A program made the translations under genes and the position numbers. Of a DNA stretch of 33,978 nt, positions 9,001 to 31,756 are shown in pieces. How positions within the stretch are numbered: the stretch's first letter is position 1; every line of letters begins with the position of its first letter. This DNA is from Nemertoderma westbladi (Eukaryota; Animalia; Xenacoelomorpha), in the NCBI GenBank assembly GCA_032718475.1, contig JAUCBJ010002282.1, forward strand, positions 1 to 33,978. Reading direction: 5' to 3'. The notes beneath the pieces were generated by a model, which had not been told where the DNA came from, ran no database searches, and saw nothing but the letters and a program-made list of their open reading frames with translations.

Positions 9001-12000
9001 AACTATAGCAGGTTGAATAGCGTCAGTGGGTACCATACACGGATCGCTAACTATAGCAGGTTGAATCGCGTCAGAGGGTACCATACACGGATCGCTAACT
9101 ATAGCAGGTTGAATAGCGTCTGTGGGTACCATACACGGATCGCTAACTATAGCAGGTTGAATCGCGTCAGTAGGTACCATACACGGATCGCTAACACCAT
9201 AACAGGTTGAATCGCTTCAGTGGGTACCATACACGGATCGGTAACTATAGCAGGTTGAATAGCGTCAGTAGGTACCATACACGGATCGCTAACTATAGCA
9301 GGTTGAATCGCGTCAGTAGGTACCATACACGGATCGGTAACTATAGCAGGTTGAATAGCGTCAGGGGTTCCATACACGGATCGCTAACACTATAGCAGGT
9401 TGAATAGCGTCAGTGGGTACCATACACGGATCGGTAACACTATAGCAGGTTGAATAGCGTCAGAGGGTACCATACACGGATCGGTAACTATAGCAGGTTG
9501 AATCGCGTCAGTGGGTACCATACACGGATCGCTAACTATAGCAGGTTGAATCGCGTCAGAGGGTACCATACACGGATCGCTAACTATAGCAGGTTGAATC
9601 GCGTCAGTGGGTACCATACACGGATCGCTAACTATAGCAGGTTGAATAGCGTCAGAGGGTACCATACACGGATCGCTAACTATAACAGGTTGAATCGCGT
9701 CAGTAGGTACCATACACGGATCGCTAACTATAGAAGGTTGAATCGCGTCAGTGGGTACCATACACGGATCGCTAACTATAGCAGGTTGAATCGCGTCAGT
9801 AGGTACCATACACGGATCGCTAACTATAGCAGGTTGAATCGCGTCAGAGGGTACCATACACGGATCGCTAACTATAGCAGGTTGAATCGCGTCAGTGGGT
9901 ACCATACACGGATCGCTAACTATAGCAGGTTGAATAGCGTCAGTGGGTACCATACACGGATCGCTAACTATAACAGGTTGAATCGCGTCAGAGGGTACCA
10001 TACACGGATCGCTAACTATAACAGGTTGAATCGCGTCAGTGGGTACCATACACGGATCGCTAACTATAGCAGGTTGAATCGCGTCAGAGGGTACCATACA
10101 CGGATCGCTAACTATAGCAGGTTGAATCGCGTCAGAGGGTACCATACACGGATCGCTAACTATAGCAGGTTGAATCGCGTCAGTAGGTACCATACACGGA
10201 TCGCTAACTATAGCAGGTTGAATCGCGTCAGTAGGTACCATACACGGATCGCTAACTATAGCAGGTTGAATCGCGTCAGTAGGTACCATACACGGATCGC
10301 TAACTATAGCAGGTTGAATAGCGTCAGAGGGTACCATACACGGATCGCTAACTATAGAAGGTTGAATAGCGTCAGTGGGTACCATACACGGATCGCTAAC
10401 TATAGCAGGTTGAATCGCGTCAGTAGGTACCATACACGGATCGCTAACTATAGAAGGTTGAATAGCGTCAGTGGGTACCATACACGGATCGCTAACTATA
10501 GCAGGTTGAATCGCGTCAGTAGGTACCATATACGGATCGCTAACACTATAGCAGGTTGGATCGCGTCAGTGGGTACCATACACGGATCGCTAACTATAGA
10601 AGGTTGAATAGCGTCAGTGGGTACCATACACGGATCGCTAACTATAGCAGGTTGAATCGCGTCAGTAGGTACCATACACGGATCGCTAACTATAGCAGGT
10701 TGAATCGCGTCAGTAGGTACCATATACGGATCGCTAACACTATAGCAGGTTGGATCGCGTCAGTGGGTACCATACACGGATCGCTAACTATAGCAGGTTG
10801 AATCGCGTCAGTGGGTACCATACACGGATCGCTAACACTATAGCAGGTTGAATCGCTTCAGTGGGTACCATACACGGATCGCTAACTATAACAGGTTGAA
10901 TCGTGTCAGTAGGTACCATACACGGATCGCTAACTATAGCAGGTTGTATCGCGTCAGTGGGTACCATACACGGATCGCTAACTATAGCAGGTTGAATCGC
11001 GTCAGAGGGTACCATACACGGATCGCTAACTATAGCAGGTTGGATCGCGTCAGTAGGTACCATACATGGATCGCTAACTATAGCAGGTTGAATCGCGTCA
11101 GTGGGTACCATACACGGATCGCTAACTATAACAGGTTGAATAGCGTCAGTGGGTACCATACACGGATCGCTAACACTATAGCAGGTTGGATCGCGTCAGT
11201 GGGTACCATACACGGATCGCTAACACTATAGCAGGTTGAATCGCGTCAGTGGGTACCATACACGGATCGCTAACTATAGCAGGTTGAATAGCGTCAGAGG
11301 GTACCATACACGGATCGGTAAATATAGCAGGTTGAATAGCGTCAGGGGGTACCATACACGGATCGCTAACACTATAGCAGGTTGAATAGCGTCAGTGGGT
11401 ACCATACACGGATCGGTAACACTATAGCAGGTTGAATAGCGTCAGAGGGTACCATACATGGATCGCTAACTATAGCAGGTTGAATCGCGTCAGTGGGTAC
11501 CATACACGGATCGCTAACTATAACAGGTTGAATAGCGTCAGTGGGTACCATACACGGATCGCTAACACTATAGCAGGTTGGATCGCGTCAGTGGGTACCA
11601 TACACGGATCGCTAACACTATAGCAGGTTGAATCGCGTCAGTGGGTACCATACACGGATCGCTAACACTATAGCAGGTTGAATAGCGTCAGTGGGTACCA
11701 TACACGGATCGGTAACACTATAGCAGGTTGAATAGCGTCAGAGGGTACCATACACGGATCGGTAACTATAGCAGGTTGAATCGCGTCAGAGGGTACCATA
11801 CACGGATCGCTAACACTATAGCAGGTTGAATCGCGTCAGTGGGTACCATACACGGATCGCTAACACTATAGCAGGTTGAATAGCGTCAGTGGGTACCATA
11901 CACGGATCGGTAACACTATAGCAGGTTGAATAGCGTCAGAGGGTACCATACACGGATCGGTAACTATAGCAGGTTGAATAGCGTCAGTAGGTACCATACA

Positions 12001-15000
12001 CGGATCGCTAACTATAGCAGGTTGAATCGCGTCAGTAGGTACCATACACGGATCGGTAACTATAGCAGGTTGAATAGCGTCAGTGGGTACCATACACGGA
12101 TCGCTAACTATAGCAGGTTGAATCGCGTCAGAGGGTACCATACACGGATCGCTAACTATAGCAGGTTGAATAGCGTCTGTGGGTACCATACACGGATCGC
12201 TAACTATAGCAGGTTGAATCGCGTCAGTAGGTACCATACACGGATCGCTAACACCATAACAGGTTGAATCGCTTCAGTGGGTACCATACACGGATCGGTA
12301 ACTATAGCAGGTTGAATAGCGTCAGTAGGTACCATACACGGATCGCTAACTATAGCAGGTTGAATCGCGTCAGTAGGTACCATACACGGATCGGTAACTA
12401 TAGCAGGTTGAATAGCGTCAGGGGTTCCATACACGGATCGCTAACACTATAGCAGGTTGAATAGCGTCAGTGGGTACCATACACGGATCGGTAACACTAT
12501 AGCAGGTTGAATAGCGTCAGAGGGTACCATACACGGATCGGTAACTATAGCAGGTTGAATCGCGTCAGTGGGTACCATACACGGATCGCTAACTATAGCA
12601 GGTTGAATCGCGTCAGAGGGTACCATACACGGATCGCTAACTATAGCAGGTTGAATCGCGTCAGTGGGTACCATACACGGATCGCTAACTATAGCAGGTT
12701 GAATAGCGTCAGAGGGTACCATACACGGATCGCTAACTATAACAGGTTGAATCGCGTCAGTAGGTACCATACACGGATCGCTAACTATAGAAGGTTGAAT
12801 CGCGTCAGTGGGTACCATACACGGATCGCTAACTATAGCAGGTTGAATCGCGTCAGTAGGTACCATACACGGATCGCTAACTATAGCAGGTTGAATCGCG
12901 TCAGAGGGTACCATACACGGATCGCTAACTATAGCAGGTTGAATCGCGTCAGTGGGTACCATACACGGATCGCTAACTATAGCAGGTTGAATAGCGTCAG
13001 TGGGTACCATACACGGATCGCTAACTATAACAGGTTGAATCGCGTCAGAGGGTACCATACACGGATCGCTAACTATAACAGGTTGAATCGCGTCAGTGGG
13101 TACCATACACGGATCGCTAACTATAGCAGGTTGAATCGCGTCAGAGGGTACCATACACGGATCGCTAACTATAGCAGGTTGAATCGCGTCAGAGGGTACC
13201 ATACACGGATCGCTAACTATAGCAGGTTGAATCGCGTCAGTAGGTACCATACACGGATCGCTAACTATAGCAGGTTGAATCGCGTCAGTAGGTACCATAC
13301 ACGGATCGCTAACTATAGCAGGTTGAATCGCGTCAGTAGGTACCATACACGGATCGCTAACTATAGCAGGTTGAATAGCGTCAGAGGGTACCATACACGG
13401 ATCGCTAACTATAGAAGGTTGAATAGCGTCAGTGGGTACCATACACGGATCGCTAACTATAGCAGGTTGAATCGCGTCAGTAGGTACCATACACGGATCG
13501 CTAACTATAGAAGGTTGAATAGCGTCAGTGGGTACCATACACGGATCGCTAACTATAGCAGGTTGAATCGCGTCAGTAGGTACCATATACGGATCGCTAA
13601 CACTATAGCAGGTTGGATCGCGTCAGTGGGTACCATACACGGATCGCTAACTATAGAAGGTTGAATAGCGTCAGTGGGTACCATACACGGATCGCTAACT
13701 ATAGCAGGTTGAATCGCGTCAGTAGGTACCATACACGGATCGCTAACTATAGCAGGTTGAATCGCGTCAGTAGGTACCATATACGGATCGCTAACACTAT
13801 AGCAGGTTGGATCGCGTCAGTGGGTACCATACACGGATCGCTAACTATAGCAGGTTGAATCGCGTCAGTGGGTACCATACACGGATCGCTAACACTATAG
13901 CAGGTTGAATCGCTTCAGTGGGTACCATACACGGATCGCTAACTATAACAGGTTGAATCGTGTCAGTAGGTACCATACACGGATCGCTAACTATAGCAGG
14001 TTGTATCGCGTCAGTGGGTACCATACACGGATCGCTAACTATAGCAGGTTGAATCGCGTCAGAGGGTACCATACACGGATCGCTAACTATAGCAGGTTGG
14101 ATCGCGTCAGTAGGTACCATACATGGATCGCTAACTATAGCAGGTTGAATCGCGTCAGTGGGTACCATACACGGATCGCTAACTATAACAGGTTGAATAG
14201 CGTCAGTGGGTACCATACACGGATCGCTAACACTATAGCAGGTTGGATCGCGTCAGTGGGTACCATACACGGATCGCTAACACTATAGCAGGTTGAATCG
14301 CGTCAGTGGGTACCATACACGGATCGCTAACTATAGCAGGTTGAATAGCGTCAGAGGGTACCATACACGGATCGGTAAATATAGCAGGTTGAATAGCGTC
14401 AGGGGGTACCATACACGGATCGCTAACACTATAGCAGGTTGAATAGCGTCAGTGGGTACCATACACGGATCGGTAACACTATAGCAGGTTGAATAGCGTC
14501 AGAGGGTACCATACACGGATCGGTAACTATAGCAGGTTGAATCGCGTCAGTGGGTACCATACACGGATCGGTAACTATAGCAGGTTGAATCGCGTCAGAG
14601 GGTACCATACACGGATCGCTAACTATAGCAGGTTGAATAGCGTCAGTGGGTACCATACACGGATCGCTAACTATAGCAGGTTGAATCGCGTCAGTAGGTA
14701 CCATACACGGATCGCTAACTATAGCAGGTTGAATAGCGTCAGTGGGTACCATACACGGATCGCTAACTATAGCAGGTTGAATCGCGTCAGTAGGTACCAT
14801 ACACGGATCGCTAACTATAGCAGGTTGAATCGCGTCAGAGGGTACCATACACGGATCGCTAACTATAGCAGGTTGAATCGCGTCAGTGGGTACCATACAC
14901 GGATCGCTAACTATAGCAGGTTGAATAGCGTCAGTGGGTACCATACACGGATCGCTAACTATAACAGGTTGAATCGCGTCAGAGGGTACCATACACGGAT

Positions 15001-17388
15001 CGCTAACTATAACAGGTTGAATCGCGTCAGTGGGTACCATACACGGATCGCTAACTATAGCAGGTTGAATCGCGTCAGAGGGTACCATACACGGATCGCT
15101 AACTATAGCAGGTTGAATCGCGTCAGAGGGTACCATACACGGATCGCTAACTATAGCAGGTTGAATCGCGTCAGTAGGTACCATACACGGATCGCTAACT
15201 ATAGCAGGTTGAATCGCGTCAGAGGGTACCATACACGGATCGCTAACTATAACAGGTTGAATCGTGTCAGTGGGTACCATACACGGATCGCTAACTATAG
15301 CAGGTTGAATCGCGTCAGTAGGTACCATACACGGATCGCTAACTATAGCAGGTTGAATCGCGTCAGAGGGTACCATACACGGATCGCTAACTATAGCAGG
15401 TTGAATCGCGTCAGTAGGTACCATACACGGATCGCTAACTATAGCAGGTTGAATCGCGTCAGTAGGTACCATACACGGATCGCTAACTATAGCAGGTTGA
15501 ATCGCGTCAGTGGGTACCATACACGGATCGCTAACTATAGCAGGTTGAATCGCGTCAGTGGGTACCATACACGGATCGCTAACTATAGCAGGTTGAATCG
15601 CGTCAGTGGGTACCATACACGGATCGCTAACTATAGCAGGTTGAATCGCGTCAGTAGGTACCATACACGGATCGCTAACTATAGCAGGTTGAATCGCGTC
15701 AGTAGGTACCATACACGGATCGCTAACTATAGCAGGTTGAATCGCGTCAGAGGGTACCATACACGGATCGCTAACTAAAGCAGGTTGAATCGCGTCAGAG
15801 GGTACCATACACGGATCGCTAACTATAGCAGGTTGAATCGCGTCAGTGGGTACCATACACGGATCGCTAACTATAGCAGGTTGAATCGCGTCAGTAGGTA
15901 CCATACACGGATCGCTAACTATAGCAGGTTGAATCGCGTCAGTAGGTACCATACACGGATCGCTAACTATAGCAGGTTGAATCGCGTCAGAGGGTACCAT
16001 ACACGGATCGCTAACTATAGCAGGTTGAATCGCGTCAGTAGGTACCATACACGGATCGCTAACTATAGCAGGTTGAATCGCGTCAGTGGGTACCATACAC
16101 GGATCGCTAACTATAGCAGGTTGAATCGCGTCAGAGGGTACCATACACGGATCGCTAACTATAGCAGGTTGAATCGCGTCAGTGGGTACCATACACGGAT
16201 CGCTAACTATAGCAGGTTGAATCGCGTCAGTAGGTACCATACACGGATCGCTAACTATAGCAGGATGAATCGCGTCAGTAGGTACCATACACGGATCGCT
16301 AACTATAGCAGGTTGAATCGCGTCAGTGGGTACCATACACGGATCGCTAACTATAGCAGGTTGAATCGCGTCAGTGGGTACCATACACGGATCGCTAACT
16401 ATAGCAGGTTGAATCGCGTCAGTGGGTACCATACACGGATCGCTAACTATAGCAGGTTGAATCGCGTCAGTAGGTACCATACACGGATCGCTAACTATAG
16501 CAGGTTGAATCGCGTCAGTAGGTACCATACACGGATCGCTAACTATAGCAGGTTGAATCGCGTCAGAGGGTACCATACACGGATCGCTAACTATAGCAGG
16601 TTGAATCGCGTCAGAGGGTACCATACACGGATCGCTAACTATAGCAGGTTGAATCGCGTCAGTGGGTACCATACACGGATCGCTAACTATAGCAGGTTGA
16701 ATCGCGTCAGTAGGTACCATACACGGATCGCTAACTATAGCAGGTTGAATCGCGTCAGTAGGTACCATACACGGATCGCTAACTATAGCAGGTTGAATCG
16801 CGTCAGAGGGTACCATACACGGATCGCTAACTATAGCAGGTTGAATCGCGTCAGTAGGTACCATACACGGATCGCTAACTATAGCAGGTTGAATCGCGTC
16901 AGTGGGTACCATACACGGATCGCTAACTATAGCAGGTTGAATCGCGTCAGTAGGTACCATACACGGATCGCTAACTATAGCAGGTTGAATCGCGTCAGTG
17001 GGTACCATACACGGATCGCTAACTATAGCAGGTTGAATCGCGTCAGAGGGTACCATACACGGATCGCTAACTATAGCAGGTTGAATCGCGTCAGAGGGTA
17101 CCATACACGGATCGCTAACTATAGCAGGTTGAATCGCGTCAGTGGGTACCATACACGGATCGCTAACTATAACAGGTTGAATAGCGTCAGTGGGTACCAT
17201 ACACGGATCGCTAACACTATAGCAGGTTGGATCGCGTCAGTGGGTACCATACACGGATCGCTAACACTATAGCAGGTTGAATCGCGTCAGTGGGTACCAT
17301 ACACGGATCGGTAACTATAGCAGGTTGAATCGTGTCAGTGGGTACCATACACGGATCGCTAACTATAGCAGGTTGAATCGCGTCAGTA
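1..17388. repeat. Minisatellite array A, left arm (48-bp unit ACTATAGCAGGTTGAATCGCGTCAGTGGGTACCATACACGGATCGCTA, with 50-bp +AC variants), ~360 copies, running off the window start
   Basis: Directly visible head-to-tail repetition with a small set of recurrent variant sites (CAG-TG/TA/AG-GG, AATC/AATA, TAGC/TAAC/TAGA, CGCT/CGGT, +AC). Lies in the presumed PBRM1 intron that follows the BD6 exon. Confidence 0.99.
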
Positions 17389-17419
17389 CACTGAAAAAAT
17401 TGTTCGGCGGTTCTTTTTT

Positions 17420-17775
17420 TAACCTCTGGTATAAAATTTTCAACCGATGGTTGCTCTTTTAAAACCGCTGGTTACAAATTGGCATATGCTAAAACGGTGG
17501 TTTAAATTTTCCCAAAGTGCAGTGTTACATTGAAACGGTGGTTTAAATTTTCCCAAACTGCAGTGTTACATTGAAACGGTGGTTTTCCGGATTGTAATTG
17601 CTATCATAAAACAGAAACAGTGTTTGACTTAGGAATAAACGGCGGTTCATATTATTTGATACAAAGTAACCGGTGGTTTAAAACTTACATTAATCGATTG
17701 GTTGAAAAATACATATAACCGTTGATTTAAACAGTAAACGGTGGTTGAAAACTTAGAATAACCGGTGGTTTACAA
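17420..17775. repeat. Left subterminal repeats of the transposon: dispersed AA(C/A)C-NNN-GGTT motifs and a 41-bp tandem repeat (~17492-17585)
   Basis: aaccgatggtt, aaccgctggtt, aaccggtggtt and several aaacggtggtt. AAACGGTGGTTTAAATTTTCCCAAA(G/C)TGCAGTGTTACATTG occurs twice plus a partial third copy. Confidence 0.85.
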
Positions 17776-18637
17776 AAATTCAAATCACAGTTTGTTTACA
17801 ACACAGTAAACGGTAGTGATCAATAACATAATATCCAATCATGTAAACAATCTTAAGACGTTTGTTAAGTACGTTTTTATGGAACATGTTTTATCAGGTA
17901 AATATTTAACAATTGTTTAACATGATTTATATGTTTTACATTATTTATAACATAAATCAAGCATTCCCTTATATTTGTTGAATGCTACTACTATATCATG
18001 TTGAACAAAAATGTGTTATAAATTACAATGTATGTCTTAGGGATGTTTGAATAAACCGCCATAAGTTGACCACTAATTCTGCAATTTGTTCATACTGTCA
18101 TAGGCCTATCATAATTCAGTCATTGTGAAAGTGCCATTGCCATCCTGCGCTGTCCTGCAATCGCAGAATCGGTACCGGTACAATCCTGAAATTTGATTAC
18201 AGTGATGCAGTGTATCACTGCCACTGGTACAGTAGTGGTACCGGTTGCCGGTAGTACAGAACAGTAGTACAGTACTGCTGTACACTGTAGTAGGGCTGTG
18301 CTGTGTAGGGTAGTGTACTCTTTTTGTTTTGTAGTTGTACCGGTACTATTTCTGTATTTCTTGGATTGTAGCTATATTTGTGTGTATATTACTGTATTAT
18401 GAGTACGGTACCTGAGTACGGTATATTATATTTCTGTATTTGGTTTATTATTTTGGTTTGGTTAGGCCTATGCAGGAATGCAGCTATGCGGTTGGTTAGT
18501 TCTGTAGTTCAGTAGTTGGCCAGGCCTTAACCCTAATTAAAACTGTCACATAGGCTGATAGGCCAGTAGGCGTAACCGGGTGGTGAATTTTTAGGGGGGT
18601 CAGGGGTGGAAATTCTCTGCTACACCAGTACCTACCG

Positions 18638-19378
18638 GTGTACCTACCACTCTACCAGTATACCGAGACCCGACACAACTTTAGGAGTAGGAAGGCCAAT
18701 AAACGATTGTCCTCAACACCATCAACAGCTGCTAACGATAAAGCCGGTACTGAGGTACAGTTGCCTAGTAAGGTTTCAGACATTTCGCCATTGGATATAG
18801 CTAAAGTTAATCTCAAGGAGCCAGATGCAAAAGTGACCAAACGGAAAGTAATAAATCGTCCTCCTTTGCTCTGCTTATCGGATGATGATAATATAGCTGA
18901 GGGATTGGAGATAGTCCCACATCCACGAGGTGCAAAGAGGAAAGTAAGCATTTTTGATTCTTCTTCTGATGATGAATCCTCGGAATTATCTTATGGATCT
19001 AAATCGTCTAGTACCTGCAGTGGTCCATCTGATAGTCGAGATGAGGGTGACTATGTTGGTGAGTTGGTTTGGGCGCGGCAACGTATAACAAAACCATTCT
19101 GGCCTGCCCGAACTGAAAGAGCTCCAGAGGGTTCCGCAATGCCCAAGCCAAAGCATCCAGGGGACAACTTCAAGTGGATTTACTTCTTTGGTTCTAACAA
19201 TTTCTCATGGATTAAAGACACTGCGGAATACATTGTTCCATATTTTGAAAATCGCGAGCAGCATGGGAAAAGGAAGGCTTCGTCTACAGTCAAATTTCTA
19301 AAGGGACTTGATGACATTGATGAAGAATATACCGCAATGTCTGTTAGGAAAAATGATAGTCCATATCAGGAAGAGTGA
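18638..19378 (+). CDS. PWWP-domain ORF carried inside the transposon (domain ~19052-19330, preceded by a basic and Ser/Asp-rich disordered region)
   Basis: VGELVWAR...KPFWPAR...WIYFFGSNNFSWIK...IVPY...KFLKGLDDI follows the PWWP pattern (G.LVWAK, P[WF]WP, V.FFG, W, C-terminal helix). The frame is open from 18587. No ATG precedes the domain (the track start is GTG), so this is probably a spliced terminal exon or a captured fragment. Confidence 0.8.
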   Translation: MYLPLYQYTETRHNFRSRKANKRLSSTPSTAANDKAGTEVQLPSKVSDISPLDIAKVNLKEPDAKVTKRKVINRPPLLCLSDDDNIAEGLEIVPHPRGAKRKVSIFDSSSDDESSELSYGSKSSSTCSGPSDSRDEGDYVGELVWARQRITKPFWPARTERAPEGSAMPKPKHPGDNFKWIYFFGSNNFSWIKDTAEYIVPYFENREQHGKRKASSTVKFLKGLDDIDEEYTAMSVRKNDSPYQEE

Positions 19379-19499
19379 ATGGTTCAATACATTATCATTT
19401 AGGATTTAGGAAACTGTAAATTAATTTATTCAATAATTTGATTATCATTTATATTTGATAAACATATTTGATATTTGATATTATATTTGATATTCAACA

Positions 19500-19985
19500 A
19501 ACCATTTATTTGAAACCTGAAACACCGGTTGATCTTAAATTAACCACAGGTTAAACCATGTATTTGAAACCCGAAACACCGGTTGATCTTAAATTAACCA
19601 CAGGTTAAACCATATATTTGAAACCTGAAACAACGGTTGATCCACATTAAACGCAGGTTTAACCATTTATTTTGAAAAAAAACACCGGTTGATCTTAAAT
19701 TAACCACAGGTTAAACCATATATTTGAAACCCGAAACACCGGTTGATCTTAAATTAACCACAGGTTAAATCATTTATTTGAAACCTGAAACACCATTGAA
19801 CTTAAGCACAACCACTGGTTGTTATACGAAAAACAACCTGAGGTTTAATTTATAAAATTTAACCACAGGTTATCTTTGAATCGATAAACCTCTGGTTCCT
19901 CGAATTAACCGCAGGTCAAAAATTCACCAAATTAACCTGGGGTTATTTTCGAAAACCAGAGGTTTTTTAAAAAAGAACCACTGGT
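19500..19985. repeat. Right subterminal repeats of the transposon: ~5.5 x 54-bp tandem unit (~19500-19795) followed by further AACC-NNN-GGTT motifs
   Basis: TTTGAAACCYGAAACACCGGTTGATCTTAAATTAACCACAGGTTAAACCATNTA starts at about 19509, 19563, 19617, 19671, 19723 and 19777. Then aaccactggtt, aacctgaggtt, aacctctggtt, aacctggggtt and aaccagaggtt. Confidence 0.9.
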
Positions 19986-19999
19986 ACGATTTTTCAGTG

Positions 20000-21646
20000 T
20001 AGGTACCATACACGGATCGCTAACTATAACAGGTTGAATCGCGTCAGTGGGTACCATACACGGATCGCTAACACTATAGCAGGTTGGATCGCGTCAGTGG
20101 GTACCATACACGGATCGCTAACACTATAGCAGGTTGAATCGCGTCAGTGGGTACCATACACGGATCGGTAACTATAGCAGGTTGAATCGTGTCAGTGGGT
20201 ACCATACACGGATCGCTAACACTATAGCAGGTTGAATCGCGTCAGTGGGTACCATACACGGATCGGTAACTATAGCAGGTTGAATCGTGTCAGTGGGTAC
20301 CATACACGGATCGCTAACACTATAGCAGGTTGGATCGCGTCAGTGGGTACCATACACGGATCGCTAACACTATAGCAGGTTGAATCGCGTCAGTGGGTAC
20401 CATACACGGATCGCTAACTATAGCAGGTTGAATCGCGTCAGAGGGTACCATACACGGATCGCTAACTATAACAGGTTGAATCGTGTCAGTGGGTACCATA
20501 CACGGATCGCTAACTATAGCAGGTTGAATCGCGTCAGTAGGTACCATACACGGATCGCTAACTATAGCAGGTTGAATCGCGTCAGAGGGTACCATACACG
20601 GATCGCTAACTATAACAGGTTGAATCGTGTCAGTGGGTACCATACACGGATCGCTAACTATAGCAGGTTGAATCGCGTCAGAGGGTACCATACACGGATC
20701 GCTAACTATAGCAGGTTGAATCGCGTCAGTGGGTACCATACACGGATCGCTAACTATAGCAGGTTGAATCGCGTCAGTGGGTACCATACACGGATTGCTA
20801 ACACTATAGCAGGTTGAATAGCGTCAGTGGGTACCATACACGGATCGCTAACTATAGCAGGTTGAATCGCTTCAGTGGGTACCTAGAAGATGGTCTTGGT
20901 ATCAGGGAGCGATATACTCTACTTTTACAAGCGTTTGTTGATAGCTTAATACGCGGCGGCATACACGGATCGCTAACTATAGCAGGTTGAATCGCGTCAG
21001 AGGGTACCATACACGGATCGCTAACTATAGCAGGTTGAATCGCGTCAGTAGGTACCATACACGGATCGCTAACTATAGCAGGTTGAATCGCGTCAGTAGG
21101 TACCATACACGGATCGCTAACTATAGCAGGTTGAATAGCGTCAGTAGGTACCATACACGGATCGCTAACTATAACAGGTTGAATCGCGTCAGAGGGTACC
21201 ATACACGGATCGCTAACTATAGCAGGTTGAATCGCGTCAGTGGGTACCATACACGGATCGCTAACTATAGCAGGTTGAATAGCGTCAGTGGGTACCATAC
21301 ACGGATCGCTAACTATAACAGGTTGAATCGCGTCAGTAGGTACCATACACGGATCGCTAACTATAGCAGGTTGAATAGCGTCAGTGGGTACCATACACGG
21401 ATCGCTAACTATAACAGGTTGAATCGCGTCAGAGGGTACCATACACGGATCGCTAACTATAGCAGGTTGAATCGCGTCAGTGGGTACCATACACGGATCG
21501 CTAACTATAACAGGTTGTATCGCGTCAGAGGGTACCATACACGGATCGCTAACACACTAGCAGGTTGAATCGCGTCAGAAGGTACCATACACGGATCGCT
21601 AACTATAGCAGGTTGAATCGCGTCAGGGGTTCCATCACACACGGAT
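20000..21646. repeat. Minisatellite array A, right arm (~32 copies), ending ~8 nt from the exon boundary at 21655
   Basis: Same 48-bp unit resumes exactly in register after the transposon. It ends in a degenerate unit (CAGGGGTTCCATCACACACGGATG) next to aacttac, the reverse complement of the donor. Confidence 0.98.
20884..20960. other. 77-bp unique insertion within one array-A unit
   Basis: The unit is split as GGGTACC|insert|ATACACGG with no loss of repeat bases and only a 1-bp (C) junction ambiguity. No TIR, poly-A tail or TSD. Confidence 0.9.
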
Positions 21647-21654
21647 GAACTTAC

Positions 21655-21846
21655 CCACACAGATCATCCCTTTTCGAGATGTACAACATCTGTAGATCCA
21701 CGGAATCCTCGTAGATCTCGGAATCCAGTTTACTTATCCTCCGCGCGCGATCTAACACTGCGAATATGTCGGTCTGCAGTCGGTCCAACCGTCGGTACCG
21801 GCCCTTCTCCAGGTTGTGTCGGATTATATCGAACGACATCGGACGT
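21655..21846 (-). CDS. PBRM1: Polybromo-1 coding exon, C-terminal part of bromodomain 6
   Basis: Acceptor tttatttag|A and donor TGTGG|gtaagt. 192 nt, phase 2 to phase 2. Encodes RPMSFDIIRHNLEKGRYRRLD...DSEIYEDSVDLQ...RDDLC, matching the recalled BD6 pattern FDII..N....RYRRLD...SEIYEDAVELQ...RDELC. Confidence 0.95.
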
Positions 21847-21986
21847 CTAAATAAATTAAGAAATGTTTTACGGATAATAATAATTTATTGTCAAATAAAT
21901 AATTCAAAACGGAATGAATTAAATATATTTCTGGGTATTATTCTTGCAGCCCAGTGTTCGATATTTGGGATAAATGGGTTAATAGC

Positions 21987-22021
21987 GAGTATCGCACGTG
22001 AGAGTATCGCACGTGAGAGTA
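21987..22021. repeat. 15-bp tandem duplication (GAGTATCGCACGTGA x2.3)
   Basis: Directly visible in the intron between the two BD6 exons. Confidence 0.85.
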
Positions 22022-22152
22022 GGTTTCAGTTGAGCATAAAATACCCGAGGGGAAAAATATTCAGCCGGAAGTAAATTAGGGGGGGGATTATGCGTGTTCA
22101 CGTTTAATGACTAACTATTGAGTTAGTTGGGCTATCCGAGAGGCAACTGTGA

Positions 22153-22170
22153 GGGGGGGGGGGGGGGGGG
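22153..22170 (+). repeat. G18 homopolymer
   Basis: Directly visible. Confidence 0.9.
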
Positions 22171-22393
22171 TTGATGGAAATCCCGTATAATATATCTTCG
22201 CTGCAAAATAGCAACAAAATGAAGGGAGCGGAGCAGGTTACAGCGGAATATTATTCTAAACGCAATTATTATCGTTTATAATATTAATATTTGCTCGTCG
22301 TTTTGACCTTGGAGAAAGATTAATTTTAACTACGTCAAGACTGGTGCGTTGGTTTCCCGGGTAACCGGGAAATTGAAACTGAAAGTAATTAAC

Positions 22394-22785
22394 CTTTTAG
22401 CGTTAACGTCCTCGTCGTTGCTGGCCTCCTCGCTGGGTAAATCCATCAAGGAGTCGCTATAGCAACGCCCACCGTCGTCCTCCCTGGAGAGGACGGTGAG
22501 GAAGAGCTGAGTGAGGAGGTCGCGGACACACTGCTGTACGTTTACGGAGTCCTGTCCAACCGAACCCTGGATGCTGGACTTCTTCTCGAGAAGAACCCGC
22601 TGGAGAGTGAGCGCGTCCTTGTAGATGAGCGACTCCGGGTCGTTGTATTTACATCCGTTGTCCAGCATCAGTATAAAATCGGACACCATGTCGTCCAACA
22701 TCTCGTACGTGTGCGACTCCATCCGCTGGTAGATCCGCTGCATATCCATTGGTTTACGAATGACGTCATAATATTCCGGTAACTC
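22394..22785 (-). CDS. PBRM1: Polybromo-1 coding exon, rest of bromodomain 5 and start of bromodomain 6
   Basis: Acceptor tttgttgccag|GAG and donor AAAAG|gttaat. 392 nt, phase 0 to phase 2. Encodes ELPEYYDVIRKPMDM...YNDPESLIYKDAL...DDGGRCYSDSL. The PESLIYKDAL and GRCYSDSL motifs are characteristic of polybromo. Confidence 0.95.
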
Positions 22786-22918
22786 CTGGCAACAAAGTAT
22801 TTACTTACTATAGTATTTATTTACTTACCTTTTTATAAGACACCTAGGCTCCGCGGTTTTAGGAGGAATAAAAGAGTTTTGTTTGTCACATATATAAACC
22901 ATTTTTAGCAAATCAGAG

Positions 22919-22945
22919 CCCCCCCCCCCCCCCCCCCCCCCCCCC
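22919..22945 (+). repeat. C27 homopolymer
   Basis: Directly visible. Confidence 0.9.
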
Positions 22946-23197
22946 TTCTTACTGCTAGCTGAACAACCTCCGTCGGCTTTGTTTTCTTCTATTTGGAATT
23001 TAATTTTCATTAGGAATACATTTTGGGTGGACTATATTGATTTCGGTGGACTAAGTTGTCAACTGTTTTTTTGGAATGAGCATGGTCGATTACGTGACAA
23101 AATTCGAGCAGAATTTTTGTTTCGTACTTTTCAAGGAAAAAATACCGCCAATTTTGAAATTAAATTGTCTGATTCCATTTCTGAGGGCAATTTTCAT

Positions 23198-23216
23198 GGG
23201 GGGGGGGGGGGGGGGG
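23198..23216 (+). repeat. G19 homopolymer
   Basis: Directly visible. Confidence 0.9.
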
Positions 23217-24203
23217 TTACCCCCTCCTCGGGTATAATTTCCACCTCTTTGGTAATTTTTCACCTGATGCAGAATTTAATGGGGATTTCAAATCTTAAAA
23301 CGGCTTGGAGAGATCTTTTTTAGTTCTCAAGTTATCGCTGTCTTCCCGTCTACCATAATGCACGTCAAATTCAGAAGACAGACATATTAGACCAAACATT
23401 AAAGATGACGCCGGAAATGAAATCACAGGCCACGAAAACCACCATACTGAAAATTTTAGTGAGTTGGTATGAAGCCATAGTGTCAAACATTACTGACCGA
23501 TTAATAGACTACAGACAGTCAGGTTTGAGTGGGAAGGTTCAAACTTTAAAGCAAATTATCTCGGAATTATATTTTTCGATTTTAAAATTTTTCAAAATAC
23601 TACTCAACCACCATTTTTCACATAAATTCGATAGTTTATGGCTTGTTTGAAGGTTTTCTTCTAGATCTTCAAAAACTCTAGCACGTTTTTGAAAAAAATG
23701 AAAAAAATCAAATATTATTGCGTATTTTATAATTAATGTAATTAATTAAAATTGATTAATTTAATTAAAAATTGATAATTTAAAAAATCGACCGGAGAGC
23801 TTTTGTCCAAAAAGTCCAAAAAGGTTGGTTTCAAAACATTTAGACAAATATTGAGGGACTAGTAGTAAAAATTAGTAGTTAAAAAAATAGTAGTAAAAAT
23901 TCAATCTAAATTTTTGTTGCTGTTTGGCCTCCCCACGTTGGCTTACCCGAGAATATGTAAAAAAAGGCATGTTCTTAGATAAAATTGTCATTACGGGGGG
24001 GGGTTTTCGGGGTCTGTTTTGTTGTTTGTCGGAAAGACAAAATAATGTAAATTTTATAGGCCTATTTATGGAAACATGCCACACAGTCAAATCCAAATCG
24101 TCATATCTGCAAAACTAAACATGTAGGGAAATCATAACTTTAATAGGATTCGCATCGAAACAGGTGCCTGACTTAAAGTTTAGTTTCAGTTTAACAGACT
24201 CAC

Positions 24204-24385
24204 CGGCCGACTGGGTAGTTTAAAGAAAGCCTGATAAAGTTGTCTCCCTTTACTATCTGTATAATCACGTATGGTTTCGTACAACATCTTTAGATGGGTC
24301 TGCAATTCCGTTTTAGGGACGAAGAATTTCGTTGTCGCTTTTTGTTTTCCTGGAGTTCGAATCTTCGGTATAAGAAGTGGAGCAT
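24204..24385 (-). CDS. PBRM1: Polybromo-1 coding exon, BD4-BD5 linker and start of bromodomain 5 (APLLIPKIRTPGKQK...LKMLYETIRDYTDSKGRQLYQAFFKLPSRP)
   Basis: Not in the ORF track; translated by hand. Acceptor cgtttag|AT and donor CCG|gtgagt. 182 nt, phase 1 to phase 0. YETIRDYTDSKGRQL...F.KLPSR resembles recalled PBRM1 BD5 (YEAVKNYTDKRGRRL...FLRLPSR). Confidence 0.92.
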
Positions 24386-24465
24386 CTAAACGATTAAATT
24401 AGATTGAATGATAAAGGAAACTTAATAGAACCTAGTATAACATTATTACCAAACGGTGGAACCTA

Positions 24466-27400
24466 TACTTACCAACTGGAGGTGGACCCAACTCAGCTCT
24501 CGCCCTACTCACCAACTGGAGGTGGACCTAACTCCGCTCTCGCCTCTCGCCCTACTCACCAACTGGAGGTGGACCTAACTCCGCTCTCGCCTCTCGCCCT
24601 ACTCACCAACTGGAGGTGGACCTAACTCCGCTCTCGCCTCTCGCCCTACTCACCAACTGGAGGTGGACCTAACTCCGCTCTCGCCCTACTCACCAACTGG
24701 AGGTGGACCTAACTCCGCTCTCGCCTCTCGCACTACTTACCAACTGGAGGTGGACCTAACTCCGCTCTCAACTCTCGCACTACTCACCAACTGGAGGTGG
24801 ACCTAACTCCGCTCTCGCCTCTCGCCCTACTCACCAACTGGAGGTGGACCTAACTCCGCTCTCGCCTCTCGCCCTACTCACCAACTGGAGGTGGACCTAA
24901 CTCCGCTCTCGCCTCTCGCCCTACTCACCAACTGGAGGTGGACCTAACTCAGCTCTCGCCTCTCGCACTACTTACCAACTGGAGGTGGACCTAACTCCGC
25001 TCTCAACTCTCGCACTACTCACCAACTGGAGGTGGACCTAACTCCGCTCTCGCCTCTCGCCCTACTCACCAACTGGAGGTGGATCTAACTCCGCTCTCGC
25101 CCTACTCACCAACTGGAGGTGGACCTAACTCCGCTCTCGCCTCTCGCCCTACTCACCAACTGGAGGTGGACCTAACTCCGCTCTCGCCTCTCGCCCTACT
25201 CACCAACTGGAGGTGGACCTAACTCCGCTCTCGCCTCTCGCACTACTTACCAACTGGAGGTGGACCTAACTCCGCTCTCGCCTCTCGCACTACTTACCAA
25301 CTGGAGGTGGACCCAACTCCGCTCTCGCCTCTCGCCCTACTCACCAACTGGAGGTGGACCTAACTCCGCTCTCGCCTCTCGCCCTACTCACCAACTGGAG
25401 GTGGACCTAACTCCGCTCTCGCCTCTCGCACTACTCACCAACTGGGGGTGGACCTAACTCCGCTCTCGCCTCTCGCACTACTCACCAACTGGAGGTGGAC
25501 CTAACTCCGCTCTCGCCTCTCGCCCTACTCACCAACTGGAGGTGGACCTAACTCCGCTCTCGCCTCTCGCACTACTCACCAACTGGGGGTGGACCTAACT
25601 CCGCTCTCGCCTCTCGCACTACTCACCAACTGGAGGTGGACCTAACTCCGCTCTCGCCTCTCGCACTACTCACCAACTGGAGGTGGACCTAACTCCGCTC
25701 TCGCCTCTCGCCCTACTCACCAACTGGAGGTGGACCTAACTCCGCTCTCGCCTCTCGCACTACTCACCAACTGGGGGTGGACCTAACTCCGCTCTCGCCT
25801 CTCGCACTACTCACCAACTGGAGGTGGACCTAACTCCGCTCTCGCCTCTCGCCCTACTCACCAACTGGAGGTGGACCTAACTCCGCTCTCGCCTCTCGCA
25901 CTACTCACCAACTGGGGGTGGACCTAACTCCGCTCTCGCCTCTCGCACTACTCACCAACTGGGGGTGGACCTAACTCCGCTCTCGCCTCTCGCACTACTC
26001 ACCAACTGGAGGTGGACCTAACTCCGCTCTCGCCTCTCGCCCTACTCACCAACTGGAGGTGGACCTAACTCCGCTCTCGCCTCTCGCCCTACTCACCAAC
26101 TGGAGGTGGACCTAACTCCGCTCTCGCCTCTCGCCCTACTCACCAACTGGAGGTGGACCTAACTCCGCTCTCGCCTCTCGCCCTACTCACCAACTGGAGG
26201 TGGACCTAACTCCGCTCTCGCCTCTCGCCCTACTCACCAACTGGGGGTGGACCTAACTCCGCTCTCGCCTCTCGCCCTACTCACCAACTGGGGGTGGACC
26301 TAACTCCGCTCTCGCCTCTCGCACTACTCACCAACTGGAGGTGGACCTAACTCCGCTCTCGCCTCTCGCCCTACTCACCAACTGGAGGTGGACCTAACTC
26401 CGCTCTCGCCTCTCGCCCTACTCACCAACTGGAGGTGGACCTAACTCCGCTCTCGCCTCTCGCCCTACTCACCAACTGGAGGTGGACCTAACTCCGCTCT
26501 CGCCTCTCGCCCTACTCACCAACTGGAGGTGGACCTAACTCCGCTCTCGCCTCTCGCCCTACTCACCAACTGGAGGTGGACCTAACTCCGCTCTCGCCTC
26601 TCGCACTACTCACCAACTGGAGGTGGACCTAACTCCGCTCTCGCCTCTCGCCCTACTCACCAACTGGAGGTGGACCTAACTCCGCTCTCGCCTCTCGCAC
26701 TACTCACCAACTGGAGGTGGACCTAACTCCGCTCTCGCCTCTCGCACTACTCACCAACTGGAGGTGGACCTAACTCCGCTCTCGCCTCTCGCCCTACTCA
26801 CCAACTGGAGGTGGACCTAACTCCGCTCTCGCCTCTCGCCCTACTCACCAACTGGAGGTGGACCTAACTCCGCTCTCGCCTCTCGCCCTACTCACCAACT
26901 GGAGGTGGACCTAACTCCGCTCTCGCCTCTCGCACTACTCACCAACTGGGGGTGGACCTAACTCCGCTCTCGCCTCTCGCACTACTCACCAACTGGGGGT
27001 GGACCTAACTCCGCTCTCGCCTCTCGCACTACTCACCAACTGGAGGTGGACCTAACTCCGCTCTCGCCTCTCGCCCTACTCACCAACTGGAGGTGGACCT
27101 AACTCCGCTCTCGCCTCTCGCCCTACTCACCAACTGGGGGTGGACCTAACTCCGCTCTCGCCTCTCGCCCTACTCACCAACTGGGGGTGGACCTAACTCC
27201 GCTCTCGCCTCTCGCACTACTCACCAACTGGAGGTGGACCTAACTCCGCTCTCGCCTCTCGCCCTACTCACCAACTGGAGGTGGACCTAACTCCGCTCTC
27301 GCCTCTCGCCCTACTCACCAACTGGAGGTGGACCTAACTCCGCTCTCGCCTCTCGCACTACTCACCAACTGGAGGTGGACCTAACTCCGCTCTCGCCTCT

Positions 27401-30400
27401 CGCCCTACTCACCAACTGGAGGTGGACCTAACTCCGCTCTCGCCTCTCGCACTACTCACCAACTGGAGGTGGACCTAACTCCGCTCTCGCCTCTCGCACT
27501 ACTCACCAACTGGAGGTGGACCTAACTCCGCTCTCGCCTCTCGCCCTACTCACCAACTGGAGGTGGACCTAACTCCGCTCTCGCCTCTCGCCCTACTCAC
27601 CAACTGGAGGTGGACCTAACTCCGCTCTCGCCTCTCGCCCTACTCACCAACTGGAGGTGGACCTAACTCCGCTCTCGCCTCTCGCACTACTCACCAACTG
27701 GGGGTGGACCTAACTCCGCTCTCGCCTCTCGCACTACTCACCAACTGGGGGTGGACCTAACTCCGCTCTCGCCTCTCGCACTACTCACCAACTGGAGGTG
27801 GACCTAACTCCGCTCTCGCCTCTCGCCCTACTCACCAACTGGAGGTGGACCTAACTCCGCTCTCGCCTCTCGCCCTACTCACCAACTGGGGGTGGACCTA
27901 ACTCCGCTCTCGCCTCTCGCCCTACTCACCAACTGGGGGTGGACCTAACTCCGCTCTCGCCTCTCGCACTACTCACCAACTGGAGGTGGACCTAACTCCG
28001 CTCTCGCCTCTCGCCCTACTCACCAACTGGAGGTGGACCTAACTCCGCTCTCGCCTCTCGCCCTACTCACCAACTGGAGGTGGACCTAACTCCGCTCTCG
28101 CCTCTCGCCCTACTCACCAACTGGAGGTGGACCTAACTCCGCTCTCGCCTCTCGCCCTACTCACCAACTGGAGGTGGACCTAACTCCGCTCTCGCCTCTC
28201 GCCCTACTCACCAACTGGAGGTGGACCTAACTCCGCTCTCGCCTCTCGCCCTACTCACCAACTGGGGGTGGACCTAACTCCGCTCTCGCCTCTCGCACTA
28301 CTCACCAACTGGAGGTGGACCTAACTCCGCTCTCGCCTCTCGCCCTACTCACCAACTGGAGGTGGACCTAACTCCGCTCTCGCCTCTCGCCCTACTCACC
28401 AACTGGAGGTGGACCTAACTCCGCTCTCGCCTCTCGCCCTACTCACCAACTGGAGGTGGACCTAACTCCGCTCTCGCCTCTCGCACTACTCACCAACTGG
28501 AGGTGGACCTAACTCCGCTCTCGCCTCTCGCCCTACTCACCAACTGGAGGTGGACCTAACTCCGCTCTCGCCTCTCGCCCTACTCACCAACTGGAGGTGG
28601 ACCTAACTCCGCTCTCGCCTCTCGCACTACTCACCAACTGGAGGTGGACCTAACTCCGCTCTCGCCTCTCGCCCTACTCACCAACTGGAGGTGGACCTAA
28701 CTCCGCTCTCGCCTCTCGCCCTACTCACCAACTTGAGGTGGACCTAACTCCGCTCTCGCCTCTCGCACTACTCACCAACTGGGGGTGGACCTAACTCCGC
28801 TCTCGCCTCTCGCACTACTCACCAACTGGGGGTGGACCTAACTCCGCTCTCGCCTCTCGCACTACTCACCAACTGGAGGTGGACCTAACTCCGCTCTCGC
28901 TTCTCGCCCTACTCACCAACTGGAGGTGGACCTAACTCCGCTCTCGCCTCTCGCACTACTCACCAACTGGGGGTGGACCTAACTCCGCTCTCGCCTCTCG
29001 CACTACTCACCAACTGGGGGTGGACCTAACTCCGCTCTCGCCTCTCGCACTACTCACCAACTGGAGGTGGACCTAACTCCGCTCTCGCCTCTCGCCCTAC
29101 TCACCAACTGGAGGTGGACCTAACTCCGCTCTCGCCTCTCGCACTACTCACCAACTGGAGGTGGACCTAACTCCGCTCTCGCCTCTCGCACTACTCACCA
29201 ACTGGGGGTGGACCTAACTCAGCTCTCGCCTCTCGCACTACTCACCAACTGGGGGTGGACCTAACTCCGCTCTCGCCTCTCGCACTACTCACCAACTGGA
29301 GGTGGACCTAACTCCGCTCTCGCCTCTCGCACTACTCACCAACTGGGGGTGGACCTAACTCCGCTCTCGCCTCTCGCACTACTCACCAACTGGGGGTGGA
29401 CCGCTCTCACCTCTCGCACTACTCACCAACTGGAGGTGGACCTAACTCCGCTCTCGCCTCTCGCCCTACTCACCAACTGGAGGTGGACCTAACTCAGCTC
29501 TCAACTCTCGCACTACTCACCAACTGGAGGTGGACCTAACTCCGCTCTCGCCTCTCGCACTACTTACCAACTGGGGGTGGACCTAACTCCGCTCTCGCCT
29601 CTCGCACTACTCACCAACTGGAGGTGGACCCAACTCCGCTCTAGCCTCTCGCACTACTCACCAACTGGAAGTGGACCTAACTCCGCTCTCGCCTCTCGCA
29701 CTACTCACCAACTGGAGGTGGACCTAACTCCGCTCTCGCCTCTCGCACTACTCACCAACTGGGGGTGAACCTAACTCCGCTCTCGCCTCTCACCCTACTT
29801 ACCAACTGGAGGTGGACCTAACTCCGCTCTCGCCCTACTCACCAACTGGGGGTGGACCTAACTCAGCTCTCAACTCTCGCACTACTCACCAACTGGGGGT
29901 GGACCTAACTCTGCTCTCAACTCTCGCACTACTCACCAACTGGAGGTGGACCTAACTCCGCTCTCGCCTCTCGCACTACTTACCAACTGGGGGTGGACCT
30001 AACTCCGCTCTCGCCTCTCGCACTACTCACCAACTGGAGGTGGACCTAACTCCGCTCTCGCCTCTCGCACTACTCACCAACTGGAGGTGGACCCAACTCC
30101 GCTCTCGCCTCTCGCACTACTCACCAACTGGAAGTGGACCTAACTCCGCTCTCGCCTCTCGTCCTACTCACCAACTGGAAGTGGACCTAACTCCGCTCTC
30201 GCCTCTCGCACTACTCACCAACTGGGGGTGGACCTAACTCAGCTCTCAACTCTCGCACTACTCACCAACTGGGGGTGGACCTAACTCAGCTCTCAACTCT
30301 CGCACTACTCACCAACTGGAGGTGGACCTAACTCCGCTCTCGCCTCTCGCACTACTTACCAACTGGGGGTGGACCTAACTCCGCTCTCGCCTCTCGCACT

Positions 30401-31756
30401 ACTCACCAACTGGGGGTGGACCTAACTCCGCTCTCGCCTCTCGCACTACTCACCAACTGGAGGTGGACCCAACTCCGCTCTCGCCTCTCGCACTACTTAC
30501 CAACTGGAAGTGGACCTAACTCCGCTCTCGCCTCTCGCACTACTCACCAACTGGATGTGGACCTAACTCAGCTCTCGCCTCTCGCACTACTCACCAACTG
30601 GGGGTGGACCTAACTCAGCTCTCAACTCTCGCACTACTCACCAACTGGAGGTGGACCTAACTCCGCTCTCGCCCCTCGCACTACTCACCAACTGGAGGTG
30701 GAACCAACTCCGCTCTCGCCTCTCGCACTACTCACCAACTGGAAGTGGACCTAACTCCGCTCTCGCCTCTCGCACTACTCACCAACTGGAGGTGGACCTA
30801 ACTCCGCTCTCAACTCTCGCACTACTCACCAACTGGAGGTGGACCTAACTCCGCTCTCGCCTCTCGCACTACTCACCAACTGGGGGTGGACCTAACTCAG
30901 CTCTCAACTCTCGCACTATACTCACCAACTGGAGGTGGACCTAACTCCGCTCTCGCCTCTCGCACTACTCACCAACTGGGGGTGGACCTAACTCAGCTCT
31001 CGCCTCTCGCACTACTTACCAACTGGAGGTGGACCTAACTCCGCTCTCAACTCTCGCACTACTCACCAACTGGAGGTGGACCTAACTCCGCTCTCGCCTC
31101 TCGCCCTACTTACCAACTGGAGGTGGACCTAACTCCGCTCTCGCCTCTCGCACTACTCACCAACTGGAGGTGGACCTAACTCAGCTCTCGCCTCTCGTCC
31201 TACTCACCAACTGGAGGTGGACCTAACTCCGCTCTCGCCTCTCGCACTACTCACCAACAGGAAGTGGACCTAACTCCGCTCTCGCCTCTCGCACTACTCA
31301 CCAACTGGGGGTGAACCTAACTCCGCTCTCGCCTCTCGCCCTACTTACCAACTGGAGGTGGACCTAACTCCGCTCTCGCCCTACTCACCAACTGGGGGTG
31401 GACCTAACTCCGCTCTCGCCTCTCGCACTACTTACCAACTGGAGGTGGACATAACTCCGTTCTCGCCTCTCGCACTACTTACCAACTGGAGGTGGACCTA
31501 ACTCCGCTCTCGCCTCTCGCCCTACTTACCAGCTGGGGGTGGACCCAACTCAGCTCTCGCCTCTCGCACTACTCACCAACTGGGGGTGGACCTAACTCCG
31601 CTCTCGCCTCTCGCCGTACTCACCAACTGGAGGTGGACCTAACTCCGCTCTCGCCTCTCGCCCTACTCACCAACTGGAGGTGGACCTAACTCCGCTCTCG
31701 CCTCTCGCCCTACTCACCAACTGGAGGTGGACCCAACTCCGCTCTCGCCTCTCGCA
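24466..31756 (-). repeat. Minisatellite array B: 47-bp unit made of the PBRM1 exon 3' end plus 5' splice site, ~155 copies
   Basis: Minus-strand unit is CGAGAGGCGAGAGCGGAGTTAGGTCCACCTCCAGTTG|GTGAGTAG(G/T)G. The first unit overlaps coding sequence REARAELGPPPV. Occasional 40-bp units lack one 7-bp CTCTCGC sub-repeat. Confidence 0.98.

What the first reader, a model, noticed from the sequence alone, without database searches (positions are those of the whole stretch)
17389..19999. CACTG-ended DNA transposon whose only recognisable cargo is a PWWP chromatin-reader ORF, inserted in a gene-body intron
Seen: precise TA duplication, inverted ends, subterminal repeats, no transposase, and one uninterrupted 246-codon ORF ending in a complete PWWP-like domain. 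A KRK-type basic motif and an acidic Ser-rich tract precede the domain. Established: PWWP domains (LEDGF, DNMT3, NSD, MSH6) bind H3K36me2/3 nucleosomes of transcribed gene bodies, LEDGF tethers lentiviral integration there, and CACTA-type elements carry accessory ORFs and capture host fragments. Inference: this may be a transposon family encoding its own nucleosome reader for intron targeting or anti-silencing, or a Pack-type capture of a host exon. Caveats: no ATG precedes the domain, and the residue before PFWP is Lys rather than aromatic, so the methyl-lysine cage may be incomplete.
Basis: partly seen in the sequence, partly recalled or inferred. Interest (0 to 1): 0.8.

Follow-up and report, generated by a model that had tools for sequence, protein, structure and literature searches.

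The report
Transposon carrying a PWWP chromatin-binding remnant
This is a real 2.6-kb jumping-DNA element in an animal genome, likely present in several copies, that has no mobilising enzyme of its own but carries an unbroken, start-less reading frame for a PWWP chromatin-binding domain, likely the leftover tail of a gene from a larger transposon rather than a working device for landing in introns.

Summary
Confirmed: TA|CACTG...CAGTG|TA ends, 14 palindromic subterminal repeats, no transposase in 33 frames, and a 263-codon start-less frame ending in a PWWP domain (Pfam E 1.5e-9; model matches LEDGF/HDGF PWWP folds). It lies antisense in a minisatellite intron of polybromo-1. Public DNA contigs point to a recent family, roughly 8-12 copies in two samples and about one in a third (rough depth ratios). 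In three of four runs about half or more of the PWWP-bearing depth lacks the front of the frame; 5 of 6 substitutions change amino acids. No separate host parent at 80% identity appeared in the one fully listed run, yet the frame is too intact to be old junk, so its source was likely itself transposon-borne. No partner element or RNA was found. Lys replaces one cage aromatic, so H3K36me reading is doubtful, and the intron site is uninformative (84% of the flanking window is minisatellite). Best reading: non-autonomous CMCT/EnSpm-like derivative with the last exon of a transposon PWWP gene (0.5). Four paper searches found no PWWP-carrying DNA transposon.

The parts
17387..17388 (.). left TA target-site duplication
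17389..17422 (+). left terminal inverted repeat, CACTGAAAAA perfect then imperfect
17423..17830 (.). left subterminal region: 4 AACC-NNN-GGTT palindromes, AAACGGTGGTTT repeats, 41-bp tandem pair; likely transposase binding sites (inferred)
17886..17903 (+). candidate 4-codon start exon (ATG, then CAG|GTAAAT donor, phase 0); untested
   Evidence: no RNA
18505..18630 (.). two short repeats (about 18505-18548 and 18573-18630) that are far commoner in the genome than the element; the acceptor at 18594 lies in the second
   Evidence: many loose ends on both sides and high depth
18587..19378 (+). 263-codon stop-free frame without a start codon before the domain; frame shared by other copies only from about 18659 (candidate acceptor CAG at 18656-18658, phase 0); basic and acidic/Ser-rich low-complexity front part
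19058..19330 (+). PWWP domain (aa 158-248); cage positions K169, W172, F200 by alignment to PSIP1 Y18, W21, F44
19499..19965 (.). right subterminal region: 54-bp tandem x5.7 and 10 AACC-NNN-GGTT palindromes
19966..19999 (-). right terminal inverted repeat ending CAGTG
20000..20001 (.). right TA target-site duplication
   Evidence: contigs of X2 and X3 stop exactly at 20001
1..21640 (.). host context: 48-bp minisatellite filling a polybromo-1 intron, interrupted by the element
21654..33370 (-). host context: exons of polybromo-1 (PBRM1) bromodomains at about 33242-33370, 31713-31880, 24189-24383, 22390-22785, 21654-21848

Best explanation
The element is a transposase-less DNA transposon with CACTG ends and a TA duplication, likely an internal-deletion derivative of a larger CMCT/EnSpm-like element, and its start-less PWWP frame is likely the last exon of a gene that belonged to that larger transposon. 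It would move by cut and paste when a partner's transposase binds the terminal and subterminal repeats (inferred from anatomy). In the parent, the PWWP tail (on the transposase or on a companion protein) would tether the machinery to nucleosomes or DNA; with Lys at the Y18 cage position it is predicted to bind without H3K36me selectivity. In the 2.6-kb copies the frame is likely a passenger, not needed in cis. Shown: ends, repeats, domain, host intron, deletion variants. Inferred: copy number, partner, origin, binding.
For: Anatomy; no transposase in 33 frames. CAC..GTG termini and TA duplication fit the CMCT clade (EnSpm termini CAC..GTG; ESTA with TA duplications; PMC12730594 passages). Family: contigs of X2 and X3 stop exactly at the right TA and other flanks appear as loose ends; rough depth ratios 8.5, 12.4, 7.5-9.1 in X1, X2, X3 and 1.1 in X4. 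The frame lacks a start and sits against the right end, as a last exon would. It is too intact to have drifted long: under assumed indel rates it would likely break within 2-5% divergence, 9% on stops alone. Yet in X4, where all 4 laid contigs are listed at 80% likeness, the one contig over the PWWP runs on into the right subterminal repeats, and the X2 and X3 contigs do the same: no host parent branches off. Both indels after 18660 keep the frame (2 of 2), against 2 of 7 upstream; P about 0.06 by density, Fisher 0.17. The domain is a long unplaced branch (1.13 changes per site) among 45 relative domains, 29-43% to 41 relatives. Passenger: depth over codons 40-100 is 0.51, 0.27, 1.0 and 0.54 of that over the PWWP in X1-X4, with a 401-bp deletion and a 274-for-90 replacement seen; 5 of 6 substitutions are non-synonymous. 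PSIP1 Y18A loses H3K36me3 specificity but little affinity (PMC3663649 passages).
Against: None of the 41 relatives shows a transposase family among the Pfam families displayed (best five per protein); 15 of 41 are N-PAC/GLYR1-type host proteins with the dehydrogenase domain. The host's own proteome is not in the databases (best PBRM1 match 54%), so the lack of a close protein match does not exclude a host donor. Contigs drop rare variants, and the tables for X1-X3 were cut (43 loose ends and 93 pieces not shown; one unexplained X1 loose end at 19460). X3, the same sample as X2, shows no depth drop. Depth is not a copy number by the tool's own note, and the single-copy reference contigs are my assumption.
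Confidence: 0.5

Rival explanations
1. Pack-type capture: an empty CACTG/TA element picked up an exon of a host PWWP gene (N-PAC/GLYR1-like or another), then multiplied; the frame is neutral cargo.
For: No start codon; near-neutral substitutions, 5 of 6 non-synonymous (P 0.61 under neutrality, 0.04 if 60% were silent); copies lose the front part; relatives are host chromatin proteins, 15 of 41 N-PAC-type; host proteome absent from databases. Multicopy Pack-TIRs are known in animals (PMC8277862 passages).
Against: A capture recent enough to keep 240 codons intact should leave a near-identical parent; none branches off in X4 (4 of 4 contigs listed) and the PWWP contigs of X2-X4 run into the element's own repeats. 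N-PAC has its PWWP at the N-terminus, here it is C-terminal; the tree does not nest it in any supported N-PAC clade.
Confidence: 0.28
2. The short element is an expressed cargo-only transposon: a small upstream exon (for example ATG 17886 to donor 17897) is spliced to the acceptor at 18658 and yields a roughly 240-aa nuclear PWWP protein that helps the family (anti-silencing, decoy or tether) while transposase comes in trans.
For: Donor CAG|GTAAAT and acceptor CAG are both phase 0 and would give an open protein; both indels after 18660 keep the frame; model pLDDT 84 with a full PWWP fold; precedent of epigenetic cargo genes (TET/JBP) in EnSpm and ESTA elements (PMC12730594).
Against: Phase match has a 1 in 3 chance and was picked after the fact; no sign of amino-acid constraint; many copies lack both acceptors; no AATAAA on the coding strand after the stop.
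Confidence: 0.15
3. One reading: the PWWP reads H3K36me2/3 and steers insertions into transcribed gene bodies, as LEDGF does for lentiviruses.
For: Closest solved structures are LEDGF/HDGF PWWP domains; two cage aromatics (W, F) are kept; this copy is in an intron of polybromo-1.
Against: Lys at the Y18 position, in 0 of 45 relative domains; Y18A removes specificity in PSIP1; a single site in a window where 84% of non-element bases are minisatellite and 2180 of 2924 TA sites lie in the 48-bp array; no link to a transposase shown.
Confidence: 0.07

Closest known systems
CMCT clade DNA transposons: EnSpm/CACTA and ESTA (Kojima 2025, PMC12730594; passages and supplement rows read)
   Same: CAC..GTG termini; two fungal EnSpm consensus sequences start CACTG; ESTA makes TA duplications; 2-5 bp duplications across the clade; members carry epigenetic cargo genes (TET/JBP).
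   Different: No transposase here, so no phylogenetic placement; the ESTA termini seen start CACCAC and are fungal; cargo here is a PWWP reader, and 'PWWP' has 0 occurrences in that paper's supplement.
Pack-TIRs of animals, e.g. Ssk-FB4 of Drosophila (Tan et al. 2021, PMC8277862; passages read)
   Same: Non-autonomous TIR element with coding cargo, multicopy and apparently variable between samples.
   Different: Pack-TIRs are defined by an identifiable parent at 90% identity or more that is not linked to the element; none was seen here, and no full genome could be searched.
PWWP domains of N-PAC/GLYR1 (NDF) and LEDGF/PSIP1-HDGF
   Same: PF00855 hit; 39% identity to the two best single-domain relatives by BLASTP; FFG(S/T) strand motif; fold match to PSIP1 3ZEH and HRP3 6IIP, E 7e-6.
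   Different: Domain is C-terminal after about 150 low-complexity residues; no dehydrogenase or integrase-binding domain; Lys for cage Tyr/Phe and one extra residue in that loop; long unplaced branch.
Chromoviral integrase chromodomains and LEDGF tethering of HIV integrase (recalled, no call)
   Same: Idea of a royal-family reader tying an integration machine to chromatin.

Membership tests
CMCT / EnSpm-like DNA transposon | CA..TG (CAC..GTG) termini with terminal inverted repeats | tested here: met
   CACTG...CAGTG, 10 bp perfect, 36 nt at 75%
CMCT / EnSpm-like DNA transposon | 2-5 bp target-site duplication | tested here: met
   TA duplicated at a minisatellite TA; X2 and X3 contigs end at the right TA
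CMCT / EnSpm-like DNA transposon | subterminal repeats at both ends (recalled as a CACTA trait) | tested here: met
   14 palindromes, 0.38 expected
CMCT / EnSpm-like DNA transposon | DDE transposase with C(2)C and H(3-4)H motifs in the element or its partner | not testable with these tools
   none in the element; no genome held; partner not found
Canonical plant CACTA | 3-bp target-site duplication | tested here: not met
   duplication is TA, 2 bp
Pack-TIR | non-autonomous TIR element with non-transposase cargo | tested here: met
Pack-TIR | identifiable host parent of the cargo, not linked to the element | tested here: inconclusive
   no branching parent at 80% likeness in X4, 4 of 4 contigs listed; X1-X3 tables cut; host proteome absent from databases
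PWWP domain (PF00855) | profile match above the curated cut-off, full length | tested here: met
   38.7 bits against 25.6, 1-92 of 93
PWWP domain (PF00855) | five-strand barrel plus C-terminal helices | tested here: met
   predicted model: five strands, two helices, pLDDT 84; Foldseek top hits all PWWP
H3K36me-reading PWWP | three-residue aromatic cage (PSIP1 Y18, W21, F44) | tested here: not met
   K, W, F by alignment; definition from PMC3119473 and PMC3663649 passages
H3K36me-reading PWWP | selective binding to H3K36me nucleosomes | not testable with these tools
   needs a binding assay
N-PAC/GLYR1 | N-terminal PWWP plus C-terminal dehydrogenase-like domain | tested here: not met
   PWWP is C-terminal and alone; not nested in a supported N-PAC clade

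The most novel reading that the evidence does not exclude
An undescribed animal CMCT/EnSpm-like transposon lineage encodes its own PWWP protein, fused to or working with its transposase, that anchors the transposition machinery on nucleosomes or shields the element from silencing; the Lys-for-aromatic cage change would have retuned it away from H3K36me to another mark or to plain nucleosomes. It would be a cut-and-paste counterpart of LEDGF tethering that the element supplies itself.
Probability: 0.3. Interest if true: 0.8.

Novelty: new variant of a known kind. Interest (0 to 1): 0.52.

Why it matters
How cut-and-paste transposons in animals choose sites and dodge silencing is largely open. 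A PWWP domain that lives inside a recently active DNA transposon family did not turn up in four full-text searches (Repbase and subscription journals not searchable). If the parent element encodes it as a working protein, it is a self-supplied chromatin tether and a directly testable case. If it is a passenger, it is still a case of a transposon spreading a chromatin-reader exon through introns, which is modest.

Tried and rejected
No whole genome is held, so copy number, target sites, partner and parent could not be searched directly. No RNA holder listed; not evidence either way. Word-based homolog search with the whole ORF: 0 of 190 candidates passed. End-pattern scan of metagenome contigs: 0. 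Related-locus scans: 0 of 2 (viral) and 0 of 141 (metagenome) confirmed. ESM Atlas: best hits 0.87-0.89, PWWP clusters, leads only. Rfam: 0. Tree: element unplaced; P0014, P0024 and P0034 and some extra domains were left out because the motif pattern did not pick them up. Using absence of close protein relatives as evidence against host capture: rejected, the control failed (PBRM1 best 54%). Joints that skip the whole element are other minisatellite units and do not show an empty allele of this site. The acceptor at 18594 as start of the exon: its phase differs between this copy and copies lacking 8 nt at 18644, and it is inside a high-copy repeat. An ATG at 18660 in the other copies is out of frame by one base; a family-wide early frameshift is possible but unsupported. 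dN/dS among copies: too few differences (6). Paper searches returned 0; two gave nothing on animal CACTG/TA elements; a recalled PMC id was the wrong paper. No complex prediction was run, as no partner protein is in hand.

Full report
Observation. The element runs from 17389 (CACTG) to 19999 (CAGTG) with TA on both sides. It interrupts a 48-bp minisatellite; the unit variant with one TA at this position is 107 of 373 counted units, so the TA was duplicated exactly. The ends are inverted, 10 bp perfect and 36 nt at 75%. The palindrome AACC-NNN-GGTT occurs 14 times in the window, only in the element's two ends, against 0.38 expected. It holds a full PWWP domain at aa 158-248 (Pfam E 1.5e-9); the predicted model has five strands and two helices at pLDDT 84 and matches PSIP1 and HRP3 PWWP structures. 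It is the only Pfam hit in 33 frames of 35 codons or more. The first in-frame ATG is inside the domain.

Host. Minus-strand exons to the right encode bromodomains (4 of 5 exon frames hit PF00439) of polybromo-1; the nearest matches human PBRM1 833-895 of 1597 and ends at a GGTAAG donor. The element is therefore in an intron, antisense to the gene. The host is an animal whose PBRM1 has no match above 54% among the 120 listed of 1245 hits, so its proteome is poorly represented. The intron site says little: 84% of the non-element window is minisatellite and 2180 of 2924 TA sites lie in this array.

Family. No genome is held. Four DNA runs from three samples hold 62-74% of the element's words (one may be the window's source, X2 and X3 are one sample). 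Contigs of X2 and X3 stop exactly at the right TA, and other flanks show as loose ends, as expected of copies at different TA sites; in X4 the right end runs 75 letters into one flank. Dividing element depth by the depth of contigs I assumed single-copy gives about 8.5, 12.4, 7.5-9.1 and 1.1; the tool warns that depth is no copy number, so this is a rough hint of a recent, sample-variable burst. Copies differ inside: a 401-bp deletion up to 18957 (X1, X2) and a 274-for-90 replacement up to 18904 (X2, X4) remove the front of the frame and keep the PWWP; depth over codons 40-100 is 0.51, 0.27, 1.0 and 0.54 of PWWP depth in X1-X4. Other copies lack 8 nt at 18644 (X1-X3), so the frame is shared only from about 18659.

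Selection. Of 6 substitutions in the frame, 5 change the amino acid and none makes a stop: compatible with drift (P 0.61), not with strong constraint (P 0.04 if 60% were silent). Both indels after 18660 are multiples of three (3 and 12 nt), against 2 of 7 upstream; P about 0.06 by density and Fisher 0.17 (one upstream indel was inferred from loose ends, and tables were cut). A 720-nt frame would likely break within 2-5% neutral divergence under assumed indel rates, 9% on stops alone, so it was under selection until recently or still is.

Origin. A recent host parent should then be visible. In X4 all 4 contigs laid at 80% likeness are listed, and the one over the PWWP runs on into the right subterminal repeats; the X2 and X3 contigs do likewise. 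No parent branches off, which points to a source that already lay inside the transposon. Against this: contigs drop rare variants, the X1-X3 tables were cut, and one X1 loose end at 19460 is unexplained. HMMER over 1.84 billion representatives gave 41 relatives at 29-43%; 15 are N-PAC/GLYR1-type by their dehydrogenase domain, none shows a transposase among the displayed families. In a tree of 46 domains the element is a long branch with no supported sister. No partner came from metagenome or viral contigs, which hold little animal DNA.

Likely function. PSIP1's cage is M15, Y18, W21, F44; Y18A strongly lowers H3K36me3 specificity with much less effect on affinity (PMC3663649, passages), and most human PWWPs keep three aromatics (PMC3119473, passages). 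Here the positions are Lys, Trp, Phe; 32 of 45 relative domains have an aromatic at the first, none Lys. If made, the protein is predicted to be a general nucleosome or DNA tether. A phase-compatible splice (ATG 17886, donor 17897, acceptor 18658) exists on paper but is untested.

Comparison. Termini and TA duplication fit the CMCT clade, in which ESTA has TA duplications and members carry TET/JBP genes (PMC12730594, passages and supplement rows); membership cannot be closed without a transposase. Multicopy Pack-TIRs occur in animals but are defined by a parent (PMC8277862, passages). Searches listed no paper on a PWWP-carrying DNA transposon (listings only); Repbase was not searchable. The scan's notes hold nothing on this sequence or genome; one unchecked note, e1-6512007, reports a spindlin-like Tudor at a transposase C-terminus in another genome, a lead only.

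Verdict. Real and unusual cargo; most likely the start-less tail of a transposon-borne PWWP gene in a non-autonomous derivative (0.5), then Pack capture (0.28), expressed cargo (0.15), H3K36me intron targeting (0.07). New variant of a known kind; interest 0.52.

Noticed in passing
window 1-21640 and 24497-31756: Two polybromo-1 introns are filled by very long minisatellites: a 48-bp unit in about 390 copies (at least 19 kb) and an unrelated 47-bp unit in 155 copies. The 48-bp array has long stop-free repeat frames (935 aa on the minus strand) that are likely a by-product.
   Followed up: partly
window 20884-20959: A 76-bp non-repeat stretch interrupts the 48-bp array about 0.9 kb right of the element.
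   Followed up: no
window 18505-18548 and 18573-18630: Two short motifs inside the element occur at many more genomic places than the element itself; one holds a telomere-like TAACCCTAA core. They may be shared promoter or internal parts of several repeat families.
   Followed up: partly
window 18437-19602 in run X4: In X4 the PWWP part has about three times the depth of the element's ends, and other sequences join upstream at 18437; related elements with a different left part, possibly the autonomous partner, may exist.
   Followed up: no
window 17387-17508 and 19858-19973: Contigs of X2 and X3 match only the end 110-120 bases at about 92% and then go on differently: likely a related family that shares the ends.
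   Followed up: no
window 32572-32775: A small element of about 200 bp with inverted ends (ggccatgatacaccacaggagcgg ... ccgctcctgtggtgtatcatggcc) in a polybromo-1 intron, MITE-like (seen).
   Followed up: no
protein P0001: A beetle N-PAC with four tandem PWWP domains; other hits pair an N-PAC-like PWWP with F-box (P0022) or BTB (P0034), so this domain is shuffled often.
   Followed up: no
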